IMG/VR virus record: IMGVR_UViG_2695420487_000017
Source: a virus
Lineage: Duplodnaviria; Heunggongvirae; Uroviricota; Caudoviricetes
DNA length: 12,931 nucleotides
Reading direction: 5' to 3' (one strand)
Positions 6,001 through 9,000 of this stretch are shown piece by piece; positions within the stretch are counted from its first letter, which is position 1; every line of letters begins with the position of its first letter. Made by a program: the position numbers.

Positions 6001-9000
6001 AAAAGGTTGACTCCACTGATCCAGAGAGCTTCAAAGTGCAAGTGAGAAATGTTGACTCCGATCTAAGAATATCGTGCATAGTACAAGATGTTTTTCTCGA
6101 CGCATCCGAGCATAAAAAAGCTCTTCAGCAAGCTGAGTGGGATAGAAAACCAGTTCATTTGTCAATCAACGCAAAAGAACTAGATGGTGAAATAAAGTCC
6201 GCGATAATACTTTATGTCAAAGAGATAACATAATCCTCATCCCGGCCTCAGCGCCGGGTTTTCTTTGCCTCACGATCCCCACATCTAAAAACACATAACC
6301 AATTGTATTTGTTGATGTAACTCGCTAAACCATGCAGTTATGATCCCTGCCGCATAACCTTCATCAGCCACATTTTCAAAAATAAATTTCCTTATATATC
6401 AGAATCATACTTCGTAGAGTTAATAAATCACCAAAATTCGTACCAATAGTTCTTGATAATGTCGAACTATTGGTTCATTATTATCGTCATCAGCAGGACG
6501 CATTACTCACCAGGGCGGTGAATATACAACGATTCGAATATGAATCTACGGCGCTGACAAAGCGCAATAACCAAAGTGAACTTTGGGGTGTGGTGAAGGG
6601 TTCATGGACGGGAATATGTCGCACGTAAAGCGGCGAGGCCTGCGGGACTATTGCCGAATTGAAGTAGGCCGAAACAGGTCGAAATGGGTCTCCCACCTAC
6701 CACACCACCAAAGTTCATCAGGAGGTCTATATGACACGCAGAACTCAGTTCAAAGGCAATTCACGTTCTCGTCGTCGTGAGCGTTTAAAGGCAAAGGCAT
6801 TAGCTAACGGCGTGCTGGCCCGCGAAGAAGCAATAAGTTCAGAAGTATTACACCGCCCTACTCTAAGCAGAGCGCAGATTCAGGCTAAAGGTACTCACGA
6901 AACGCCTGAGCGCATAGAAGACGCTAAGCCAATTAAGTTCATGGCACAGGACGTGATCTGGCAACAGAAAGAATACAGACGCAATCTGGAGCGAGCGGCC
7001 ATTGTGTACGCGAATGAGTTTGGACATAAGCAACCAGAAACTGGTGTATGTCTTCCAAACGTAGCCATTTACGCGGCAGGCTACCGGAAATCCAAACAAC
7101 TGACGGCGAGGTGACTTGTGTTGGTCGCCAGAAAATGAAATTAGGCAGCAAACCACTTATTTGAGGTGAGATATGACAAAATCATGGAGCGTACCTTTTC
7201 CTGAATCAGAAACTGAACATGATGGAATGCCTGTTTTCTGGAGATTCCAGGCGACAGTTGAAGAAGATGGGATAAAAATATTCGCACTTCAATATATAGC
7301 TTTTCATCAGACAGAGCATTATGCATGGTTGGTTCCTGCGCATTGGATTGTTAATTTTAAACCAGCACCAAATCAGTGGTTACAGGAATGGAAACAAAGG
7401 AGAAATAGATATGCAATTAAGAAAGTAGCAAAAAATGCAGAAAGATCTTTTGCATTCCCAACGAAGAAACTTGCCATTGAGAGTTTATTGCACCGGAAGA
7501 AATACCATTTAATGAGAATCAAACAAGATTTGGCTGTTGTATCAACTCTTGTTGATGGGATGAAGAATATTGATACATCAATACCAGATATTGAATATAA
7601 CTTTGGACACAACCAAGAAACAGAAAACTGGGTGTTTTATTAGTACGAATAAGCACTGTGTATTCATTCCAACGAGTGAATACACGGAGCAATGTCGCTC
7701 GTAACCAAACAGGAGCCGACTTGTTCTGATTATTGGAAATCTTCTTTGCCCTCCAATGTGAGGGCTTTTTTATATGCATACCAATAACGCTTCACTAGAG
7801 GCGTTTTCGTTATGTGTAAATAAATAAGGAGCACACCATGCAATATGCCATTGCAGGGTGGCCTGTTGCTGGCTGCCCTTCCGAATCTTTACTTGAACGA
7901 ATCACCCGTAAATTACGTAACGGATGGAAACGCCTTATCGACATACTTAATCAGCCAGGAGTTCCCAAAAATGGATAAAACACTTATGGCTATCCAGACT
8001 AAATTCACTATCGCCACTTTTATTGGTGATGAAAAGATGTTTCGTGAAGCCGTCGACGCTTATAAAAAATGGATATTAATACTGAAACTGAGATCAAGCA
8101 AAAGCATTCACTAACCCCTTTCCTGTTTTCCTAATCAGCCCGGCATTTCGCGGGCGATATTTTCACAGCTATTTCAGGAGTTCAGCCATGAACGCTTATT
8201 ACATTCAGGATCGTCTTGAGGCTCAGAGCTGGGCGCGTCACTACCAGCAGATCGCCCGTGAAGAGAAAGAGGCAGAACTGGCAGACGACATGGAAAAAGG
8301 CCTGCCCCAGCACCTGTTTGAATCGCTATGCATCGATCATTTGCAACGCCACGGGGCCAGCAAAAAAGCCATTATCCGTGCGTTTGATGACGATGTTGAG
8401 TTTCAGGAGCGCATGGCAGAACACATCCGGTACATGGTTGAAACCATTGCTCACCATCAGGTTGATATTGATTCAGAGGTATAAAACGGATGAGTACAGC
8501 ACTCGCAACGCTGGCAGGGAAGCTGGCTGAACGTGTCGGCATGGATTCTGTCGACCCACAGGAACTGATCACCACTCTTCGCCAGACGGCATTTAAAGGC
8601 GATGCCAGCGATGCGCAGTTCATCGCATTGTTGATCGTCGCCAACCAGTACGGCCTTAATCCGTGGACGAAAGAAATTTACGCCTTCCCTGATAAGCAGA
8701 ACGGCATCGTTCCGGTGGTGGGCGTTGATGGCTGGTCCCGCATCATCAATGAAAACCAGCATTTTGATGGCATGGACTTTGAGCAGGACAATGAATCCTG
8801 TACATGCCGGATTTACCGCAAGGACCGTAATCATCCGATCTGCGTTACCGAATGGATGGATGAATGCCGCCGCGAACCATTCAAAACCCGCGAAGGCAGA
8901 GAAATCACGGGGCCGTGGCAGTCGCATCCTAAACGGATGTTACGGCATAAAGCTATGATTCAGTGTGCCCGTCTGGCCTTCGGATTTGCTGGTATCTATG

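What the first reader, a model, noticed from the sequence alone, without database searches (positions are those of the whole stretch)
6271..6490. Candidate pL carries a 10-bp perfect inverted repeat that does not match the operator motif seen at oR
At oR I see two 11-bp elements (TACTTTCAGTA, AACTGAAAGTT) spaced 24 bp apart over pR, as expected for CI operators. In the region where pL must lie, the best promoter (TTGATA-17-CATTAT) is bracketed by a different inverted repeat (CCAATAGTTC-N11-GAACTATTGG) and I find no copy of the oR motif. Either the oL operators are too diverged for me to see, the true pL is elsewhere in this 220-bp AT-rich spacer, or the repeat binds a different regulator.
Basis: seen in the sequence. 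Interest (0 to 1): 0.4.

Follow-up and report, generated by a model that had tools for sequence, protein, structure and literature searches.

The report
Phage 933W left operators OL1 and OL2
The inverted repeat around the candidate pL promoter is the two already-characterised binding sites (OL1 and OL2) of the phage 933W CI repressor, the same motif as at oR, so this is an ordinary, known lambdoid control region.

Summary
The sequence features are real. The inverted repeat is perfect over 11 bp (6442-6452 / 6464-6474), and TTGATA-17-CATTAT (6453-6481) is the only sigma-70-like site in the spacer. The claim that the repeat differs from the oR motif is wrong.

The window carries the phage 933W immunity region. 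CI is 235/235 identical to 933W CI, and 6236-6740 is almost identical to 933W. The 933W operators are 15-bp dyads with G(A/T)AC at positions 2-5 of each half-site.

A matrix built only from the three oR sites annotated in GenBank ranks 6463-6477 (CGAACTATTGGTTCA) and 6439-6453 (CGTACCAATAGTTCT) as the next best sites in the window. They lie 24 bp apart, like oR1-oR2. They are base-for-base the "OL1/OL2 repressor binding sites" annotated in GenBank EF517298. The repeat arises because OL1 and OL2 are near-identical copies in opposite orientation.

The geometry matches lambda pL: operator centres at -19/-43 against -17/-41, and the same ATCAGCAGGACGC at the transcript start.

Prophages with another cI carry other operators in the same slot. 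Distant relatives keep the two dyads but lose the long repeat.

Verdict: already known, low interest.

The parts
6241..6267 (+). Intrinsic terminator (tM / timm) that ends the pRM transcript (cI plus ORF332), immediately upstream of the spacer
   Evidence: Terminator scan: 6-bp all-GC stem 6241-6258 followed by TTTTCTTT. Identical to the terminator annotated tM in 933W record AF125520 and to the lambda sequence downstream of rexB.
6268..6438 (+). AT-rich spacer between the terminator and the operators. It is homologous to the corresponding lambda spacer and contains no repressor site, so there is no OL3.
   Evidence: 6265-6315 matches lambda 35754-35800, phage 434 and HK542. The block CAAAAATAAATT (6377-6388) is conserved in 933W, Lambda_4B5, lambda and ECO20. 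No matrix hit falls inside it.
6439..6453 (.). OL2, a 15-bp CI/Cro operator, CGTACCAATAGTTCT. Its last base is the first base of the -35 hexamer. It contains the left arm of the repeat.
   Evidence: Matrix score 13.1 from a matrix built on oR sites only. Exact reverse complement of 'OL2 repressor binding site' in EF517298. Centre at -43, against -41 for lambda oL2.
6453..6458 (+). pL -35 hexamer, TTGATA
   Evidence: Promoter scan. Invariant in 933W, Stx2_EH0337 and Lambda_4B5. TTGCAT and TTTACT occupy the same position in the Salmonella and Providencia relatives.
6463..6477 (.). OL1, a 15-bp CI/Cro operator, CGAACTATTGGTTCA. It fills the promoter spacer and overlaps the first two bases of the -10. 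It contains the right arm of the repeat.
   Evidence: Matrix score 14.1. Exact reverse complement of 'OL1 repressor binding site' in EF517298. 12 of 15 bases identical to oR3. Centre at -19, against -17 for lambda oL1.
6476..6481 (+). pL -10 hexamer, CATTAT
   Evidence: Promoter scan. CATTAT or CAATAT is conserved in all four relatives aligned.
6489..6501 (+). Inferred pL transcript start (A6489) and conserved first 13 nt, ATCAGCAGGACGC. This is the right-hand joint of the immunity-specific cassette.
   Evidence: Identical to the 13 nt running leftward from lambda 35582. Conserved in ECO20, Lambda_4B5 and Stx2_EH0337 even where the flanks differ. The start site itself is inferred by homology and was not measured.
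4343..4413 (.). oR, for comparison: oR1 4343-4357 CGTACTTTCAGTACG, oR2 4367-4381 TGAACTGAAAGTTTT, oR3 4399-4413 CGTACTCATGGTTCA
   Evidence: AF125520 annotation transferred by alignment. Sequences read.
4406..5113 (+). cI repressor gene (HTH_3 plus Peptidase_S24 domains), the protein that binds OL1 and OL2
   Evidence: 235/235 identical to 933W CI. Pfam domains.

Best explanation
The 39 bp at 6439-6477 are the left operator of a 933W-immunity prophage. They comprise two 15-bp dyad sites, OL2 (6439-6453) and OL1 (6463-6477), 24 bp centre to centre. Both are recognised by the helix-turn-helix domain of the CI repressor encoded at 4406-5113, and by inference also by Cro.

OL1 fills the spacer of pL (TTGATA-17-CATTAT) and overlaps its -10. 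OL2 abuts the -35. Repressor dimers on the two sites therefore exclude RNA polymerase and keep the N operon silent in the lysogen. RecA-stimulated CI self-cleavage frees pL, and transcription then starts at about A6489 and runs into nutL and N.

The 10-11-bp perfect inverted repeat is a by-product. Each operator is itself a dyad, and OL2 is a 12/15 copy of OL1 in the opposite orientation. As a result the inner half-sites and the operator centres read as one long repeat.

Shown here: sequence identity to the annotated sites, the motif match to oR, the geometry, and co-variation with immunity type. Taken from the literature: actual repressor binding and repression. Inferred: Cro binding and the exact +1.
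For: (1) CI is 100% identical to 933W CI, and 6236-6740 is almost identical to 933W.

(2) A matrix built only from the three annotated oR sites ranks the two pL sites 4th and 5th in the 12.9-kb window, with scores equal to oR2 and oR3. About 0.08 such hits are expected per shuffle. The degenerate pattern has four exact hits, all at oR or pL.

(3) GenBank EF517298 annotates 'OL1' and 'OL2 repressor binding site'. Its bases 1-39 are the exact reverse complement of window 6439-6477.

(4) My five sites reproduce every statistic that PMC3317979 gives for the five natural 933W operators: 15-bp sites; G at position 2 except in one oR2 half-site; A and C invariant at positions 4 and 5; position 6 is T in 7 and C in 3 of 10 half-sites.

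(5) Reviews and primary papers state that 933W has three OR but only two OL sites, and that CI binds the left operator (PMC8065619; PMC3064807; PMC10742460).

(6) The geometry equals lambda pL: 24-bp spacing, operator centres at -19/-43 against -17/-41, and the same ATCAGCAGGACGC at +1.

(7) Co-variation with immunity type. The ECO20 prophage has the same upstream gene and the same nutL/N but a lambda-type cI, and it carries lambda-type oL1/oL2 in exactly this slot. SH2026Stx1, with another cI, loses homology before the operators and has no such sites.

(8) Relatives with a related CI (Lambda_4B5, Salmonella SF6, Providencia PSTNGR2lys) keep two GWAC dyads 24 bp apart at the same place. Their substitutions fall only at positions the repressor tolerates.
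Against: No binding or transcript mapping was done on this window. The primary footprinting papers (J Bacteriol 2004, 186:7659 and 186:7670; 2011, 193:3313) are not held in the library and could not be read, so binding rests on secondary statements and on the GenBank annotation. The promoter match on its own is not above chance. Operator placement at pL (upstream edge plus spacer) differs from the annotated pR (spacer plus +1), so the two promoters are not exact mirror images.
Confidence: 0.95

Rival explanations
1. The inverted repeat is the site of a regulator other than CI/Cro: a dimer recognising 10-bp half-sites two helical turns apart.
For: The arms are 21-22 bp centre to centre and perfectly symmetric. 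The repeat is moderately unlikely by chance within the 220-bp region (1.2% of shuffles).
Against: The arms are fully accounted for by two sites that match the oR motif and the annotated OL1/OL2. The long repeat is not conserved. It shrinks to 7 bp in Lambda_4B5, which has identical oR sites and a same-length repressor gene next to a 933W-type Cro (CI identity not computed). In Providencia PSTNGR2lys the two sites are direct copies (12/15) rather than inverted ones (9/15), while the GWAC cores and the 24-bp spacing persist. No candidate regulator gene travels with the repeat.
Confidence: 0.02
2. The repeat acts as an RNA or DNA hairpin, for example a back-up terminator or insulator for pRM transcripts that read through tM.
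For: As RNA, the region folds into an 11-bp stem at -13.9 kcal/mol, z = -3.2, followed by a U-rich stretch.
Against: The stem follows automatically from two inverted operators. It decays in relatives to -7.7, -11.1 and -8.8 kcal/mol (z -1.0 to -2.3). The changes are uncompensated, for example CA to TT in one arm only in Lambda_4B5. The stem is AU-rich with an 11-nt loop, which makes a poor terminator, and the terminator scan did not call it. A strong terminator lies 180 bp upstream.
Confidence: 0.02
3. The real pL lies elsewhere in the AT-rich spacer, and the two operators act at a distance or on another promoter. One candidate uses GATAAT (6455-6460) as its -10, which would put OL1 over +1 as at pR.
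For: GATAAT is a good -10 and is invariant in close relatives. With it, the operator layout would mirror the annotated pR. The scanned promoter is only a 9/12 match.
Against: No acceptable -35 lies 16-18 bp upstream of GATAAT. GATAAT is not conserved in SF6 (GCATAT) or PSTNGR2lys (TACTTT), whereas CATTAT/CAATAT and the 17-bp spacing are. The lambda-homologous transcript start ATCAGCAGGACGC sits 7 nt after CATTAT.
Confidence: 0.04

Closest known systems
OL1/OL2 and pL of Shiga-toxin phage 933W (and phi24B, Stx2 phage I, Min27 and others)
   Same: Identical 39-bp operator sequence, identical CI, identical promoter hexamers, nutL and N. Only two left operators, as published.
   Different: Nothing differs in the control region itself. 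Only the cargo between cI and the terminator differs: a 332-aa ORF here, where 933W has L0084-L0083-stk-L0081.
Phage lambda pL with oL1/oL2/oL3
   Same: Same order (terminator, AT-rich spacer, operators, pL, nutL, N). Same 24-bp oL1-oL2 spacing. Operators overlap the -10 and -35 at nearly the same positions. Same first 13 transcript bases, and a homologous spacer.
   Different: Lambda operators are 17 bp with a different sequence (TATCACCGC type) and there are three of them. According to PMC3317979, 933W CI does not bind adjacent sites cooperatively. No third site is present here.
oR1/oR2/oR3 of the same window
   Same: Same 15-bp dyad with G(A/T)AC cores. oR1-oR2 are also 24 bp apart and are also inverted near-copies (9-bp perfect repeat ACTTTCAGT/ACTGAAAGT). 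OL1 is 12/15 identical to oR3.
   Different: Three sites rather than two. At the annotated pR the sites cover the spacer and +1, whereas at pL they cover the -35 edge and the spacer/-10.

Membership tests
933W-immunity CI operator (OL1/OL2) | 15-bp rotationally symmetric site with G at position 2, A/T at 3, A at 4, C at 5 and T/C at 6 in both half-sites | tested here: met
   Both sites match GWACYNNNRGTWC exactly. Half-sites are CGTACCA/AGAACTA and CGAACTA/TGAACCA. They fit the position statistics in PMC3317979.
933W-immunity CI operator (OL1/OL2) | Cognate repressor with the 933W recognition helix (S41, K42, K46) encoded in the same immunity region | tested here: met
   CI is 235/235 identical to 933W CI. 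Contact residues are named in PMC3317979.
933W-immunity CI operator (OL1/OL2) | Sequence identity to sites recorded as OL1 and OL2 | tested here: met
   EF517298 features at 1-15 and 25-39. Its bases 1-39 equal the reverse complement of window 6439-6477.
933W-immunity CI operator (OL1/OL2) | Sites overlap the early leftward promoter so that a bound repressor occludes RNA polymerase | tested here: met
   OL2 ends on the first base of the -35. OL1 spans the spacer and the first two bases of the -10.
933W-immunity CI operator (OL1/OL2) | Sites change together with the repressor type (immunity specificity) | tested here: met
   The lambda-type cI prophage ECO20 has lambda-type operators in the same slot between identical flanks. 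SH2026Stx1 lacks the sites. Relatives with a related CI keep them.
933W-immunity CI operator (OL1/OL2) | Specific nanomolar binding by purified repressor, and repression of pL in vivo | not testable with these tools
   Reported for the identical sequence in the literature (PMC3317979 Fig. 1 legend; PMC3064807). The primary 2004 and 2011 papers are not held.
Lambdoid pL promoter | Sigma-70 -35/-10 pair with a 16-18-nt spacer, upstream of nutL and N on the same strand | tested here: met
   TTGATA-17-CATTAT at 6453-6481. nutL annotated at window 6499-6565 by transfer from AF125520. N at 6731-7114 matches Pfam N_peptide.
Lambdoid pL promoter | Mapped transcription start | not testable with these tools
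   Inferred at A6489 from identity with the lambda sequence running leftward from 35582.

The most novel reading that the evidence does not exclude
At both early promoters the 24-bp-spaced operator pair forms a 39-bp super-dyad. oR1/oR2 and OL2/OL1 are mirror-image near-copies whose central five bases, which the repressor reads weakly, are identical in inverted orientation: TTTCA at oR and CAATA at oL, 5/5 in each pair against 2/5 in direct orientation. If selection maintains this, it would point to an orientation-dependent interaction, such as head-to-head repressor or Cro dimers, or DNA shape between the sites. That would be unexpected in a repressor reported not to bind cooperatively. The plainer reading is that each pair arose by an inverted duplication.
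Probability: 0.07. Interest if true: 0.3.

Novelty: already known. Interest (0 to 1): 0.07.

Why it matters
This result closes the finding. The left operator of this prophage is the published two-site OL of the 933W immunity group, which controls induction of many Shiga-toxin phages. No extra regulator is needed to explain the repeat.

There is a practical lesson for motif work by eye. Operator motifs should be derived from the conserved flanks of the dyad, not from the centre, and all sites at oR should be used. Some public annotations are also misleading: AF125520 annotates no oL at all, and the 'putative operators' in AP004402 are misplaced.

Tried and rejected
(1) I tried to read the primary papers that footprinted OL and characterised the early promoters (PMC524892, PMC524894, PMC3133280). 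None is held, so I relied on PMC3317979, two other papers and GenBank EF517298.

(2) An Rfam scan of the window found nothing in the region. The only hit was the cIII thermoregulator at 7825-7883.

(3) I looked for a third left operator where lambda has oL3 (about 6414-6430) and 24 or 32 bp upstream of OL2. The matrix finds nothing there, which agrees with the two-site OL in the literature. SF6 and PSTNGR2lys have weak candidates 31-33 bp upstream (scores 11.7 and 9.6), which I did not pursue.

(4) I rejected the hairpin/terminator reading, because the stem is not maintained and the changes are not compensatory.

(5) I rejected the alternative -10, GATAAT at 6455-6460, because it is not conserved and has no -35.

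(6) The extra matrix hit at 12646-12660 (score 11.0) is a single good half-site next to a poor one. I treat it as chance.

(7) The super-dyad idea was tested in relatives and failed at oL. The mirror symmetry is broken in Lambda_4B5 (3/5 centre bases), and the two sites are direct copies in the Providencia phage.

Full report
Context. The window is a lambdoid prophage early region, drawn in the opposite orientation to the usual lambda map. Its genes are P (1996-2697, -), O (2694-3632, -), cII (3665-3961, -), cro (4100-4327, -) and cI (4406-5113, +). These are followed by a 332-aa ORF (5235-6233, +), an intrinsic terminator (6241-6258), the 220-bp spacer of the finding, and N (6731-7114, +). 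Megablast shows that cI-cro-oR and everything from the terminator through N are about 99.5% identical to Shiga-toxin phage 933W and its many relatives. Only the cargo between cI and the terminator differs. The CI protein is 235/235 identical to 933W CI.

Checking the observation. The inverted repeat is real and is 11 bp long, not 10: ACCAATAGTTC at 6442-6452 and GAACTATTGGT at 6464-6474, with 11 nt between the arms. TTGATA-17-CATTAT (6453-6481) is the only sigma-70-like match in 6150-6750, although one match is what shuffles also give. A perfect 11-bp repeat with a short gap appears in 10.8% of shuffled windows. A 10-bp repeat appears in 1.2% of shuffles of the 220-bp region alone. The repeat is therefore modestly non-random.

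Why the 'different motif' claim fails. The 933W record AF125520 annotates three 15-bp right operators. Transferred to the window they are:
- oR1, 4343-4357, CGTACTTTCAGTACG
- oR2, 4367-4381, TGAACTGAAAGTTTT
- oR3, 4399-4413, CGTACTCATGGTTCA

Their conserved part is G(A/T)AC(T/C) at positions 2-6 of each half-site, and the centre varies.

A half-site weight matrix built from the three oR sites alone gives the following ranking over the whole window: oR1 19.0, oR3 14.3, oR2 14.1, then 6463-6477 CGAACTATTGGTTCA at 14.1 and 6439-6453 CGTACCAATAGTTCT at 13.1. The next hit scores 11.0 and the rest score 7 or less. Dinucleotide shuffles give 0.08 hits per window at that threshold, and 1 of 300 shuffles gives two or more. 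The pattern GWACYNNNRGTWC has exactly four perfect matches: oR1, oR3 and these two sites. The two sites are 24 bp apart centre to centre, as are oR1 and oR2.

The left arm of the repeat is positions 4-14 of the upstream site, and the right arm is positions 2-12 of the downstream site. The downstream site read backwards (TGAACCAATAGTTCG) equals the upstream site at 12 of 15 positions. The long repeat is therefore two operator copies in opposite orientation.

Independent confirmation. GenBank EF517298 is the phi24B immunity region, described as 'similar to bacteriophage 933W'. It annotates 'OL1 repressor binding site' at bases 1-15 and 'OL2 repressor binding site' at bases 25-39. Its first 39 bases are exactly the reverse complement of window 6439-6477. 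So OL1 is 6463-6477 and OL2 is 6439-6453.

The five sites also reproduce every statistic given in PMC3317979 for the five natural 933W operators. The sites are 15 bp long. Position 2 is G except in one oR2 half-site. Positions 4 and 5 are invariant A and C. Position 6 is T in 7 and C in 3 of 10 half-sites. oR1 deviates from the consensus at positions 3, 3' and 7'. Three further papers state that 933W-type phages have three right but only two left operators. One of them reports a band shift of CI on the left operator. The primary footprinting papers could not be opened.

The promoter. Aligning the window to lambda shows that the whole terminator-to-pL interval is homologous. The window's 6489-6501, ATCAGCAGGACGC, is identical to the 13 bases that run leftward from lambda 35582, which from my own knowledge is the pL start. 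With +1 at A6489, CATTAT lies at -13 to -8, TTGATA at -36 to -31, OL1 is centred at -19 and OL2 at -43. Lambda oL1 and oL2 are centred at -17 and -41 and are also 24 bp apart. OL1 therefore fills the spacer and touches the -10, and OL2 touches the -35. This is the lambda arrangement without oL3.

Comparative tests.
- Cassette swap. The E. coli ECO20 prophage has the same 332-aa ORF, terminator, nutL and N, but a lambda-type cI that is unrelated in its DNA-binding domain. Between the same flanks it carries lambda-type oL2/oL1 and TTGACA...GATACT instead of the 933W-type sites. Phage SH2026Stx1, with yet another cI, loses homology before the operators and has no matrix hits.
- Same specificity, diverged DNA. 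Lambda_4B5 has identical oR sites and a different N. Its spacer is only about 84% identical, yet OL1, the -35 and the -10 are unchanged. OL2 differs only at positions 6 and 7 (CGTACTTATAGTTCT), which the repressor tolerates. The perfect repeat there shrinks to 7 bp.
- More distant relatives. Salmonella phage SF6 (CI 88% identical) and Providencia phage PSTNGR2lys (CI N-terminal domain about 63% identical) each have three GWAC dyads at oR. Each also has two such dyads 24 bp apart, abutting a -35 and overlapping a CAATAT -10. In the Providencia phage, OL1 and OL2 are direct copies (12/15) rather than inverted ones (9/15).

The conserved elements are therefore the two dyads and their register with the promoter, not the long repeat.

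Rivals. A separate regulator is unnecessary, and the non-conservation of the outer repeat bases argues against it. An RNA hairpin is predicted (-13.9 kcal/mol, z = -3.2), but it weakens to between -7.7 and -11.1 kcal/mol in relatives through uncompensated changes. An alternative -10, GATAAT at 6455-6460, would make pL mirror the annotated pR. It lacks a -35 and is not conserved.

What remains mildly curious. In this lineage both promoter-proximal operator pairs are mirror-image copies, including their five weakly read central bases: TTTCA at oR1/oR2 and CAATA at OL2/OL1. Because this symmetry breaks in Lambda_4B5 and in the Providencia phage, I read it as a trace of inverted duplication rather than a functional requirement. 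The functional alternative gets a low probability.

Verdict. The region is the known two-site left operator and pL of the 933W immunity group. Novelty: already known. Interest: low.

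Noticed in passing
window 5235-6233 (+): A 332-aa ORF (TTG start) sits between cI and the terminator, in the slot that holds rexAB in lambda and L0084-L0083-stk-L0081 in 933W. It has no significant Pfam hit (one weak aRib match, E = 0.0027, below the gathering score) and no PADLOC hit. It matches only phrog_6191, of unknown function. It has no full-length DNA match in 50,697 phage records. It is present in 9 of 5,426 complete E. coli genomes (RefSeq WP_000406300.1, 'hypothetical protein'). It occurs behind both a 933W-type and a lambda-type cI, so it behaves as a mobile lysogen-expressed gene and is a candidate defence or exclusion gene.
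   Followed up: partly
L001 (AP004402.1, Stx2 converting phage I) 861-943 and 2330-2410: The 17-bp 'putative operator' features of this record do not coincide with the 933W-type sites. The oR features are offset from oR1-3, and the second set lies inside a coding region about 1.6 kb upstream of the real OL1/OL2 (L001 3949-3987). PMC10742460 excluded 933W for having only five operators but used 'Stx2-I' as a six-operator, 17-bp phage. If its 'Stx2-I' is this record, that phage's immunity region is nearly identical to 933W's (31 mismatches in 5,210 bp).
   Followed up: partly
window 4346-4354 / 4370-4378 and 6442-6452 / 6464-6474: Both 24-bp-spaced operator pairs (oR1/oR2 and OL2/OL1) are mirror-image near-copies with identical central pentamers in inverted orientation. 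The symmetry is kept in Salmonella SF6 and broken in Lambda_4B5 and Providencia PSTNGR2lys.
   Followed up: partly
window 6377-6388: The AT-rich block CAAAAATAAATT, about 100 bp upstream of the pL start, is conserved in 933W, Lambda_4B5, ECO20 and lambda itself, although the surrounding spacer diverges. It may be an upstream promoter element or a site for a nucleoid protein. Function not tested.
   Followed up: no
window 7825-7883 (+): Rfam match to Lambda_thermo (RF01804, 88.5 bits), the cIII translational thermoregulator, overlapping the start of the 46-aa cIII ORF at 7838-7978.
   Followed up: no
window 3182-3226: A 20-nt inverted repeat (AATCCCCTAATTTGAGGGAT / ATCCCTCGTTTTAGGGGATT) lies inside the O gene. 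From my own knowledge it resembles the lambda-type ori iterons.
   Followed up: no
window 12646-12660: AGAACTGAAAGAACA is the sixth-best operator-matrix hit (11.0). It has one good half-site, identical to the oR2 left half and centre, and one poor half-site. It lies in an intergenic gap just upstream of a terminator-like hairpin at 12666-12685. Probably chance.
   Followed up: partly
L010 5565-5579 and L011 5198-5212: Salmonella SF6 and Providencia PSTNGR2lys each have a weaker third dyad 31-33 bp upstream of OL2 (CGTACTAAAAGGACA and AATACTATAAGTTCC). Some relatives may therefore retain an OL3 that the 933W lineage lacks.
   Followed up: no
L007 4433-4501 (NZ_CP148268.1): In the E. coli genome that matches window 5114-6270 at 100%, RefSeq annotates only a 69-bp 'regulator, incomplete' pseudogene fragment at the 3' end of the N gene. 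In this window the N reading frame is intact (127 aa). I did not check whether N is intact in that genome.
   Followed up: no
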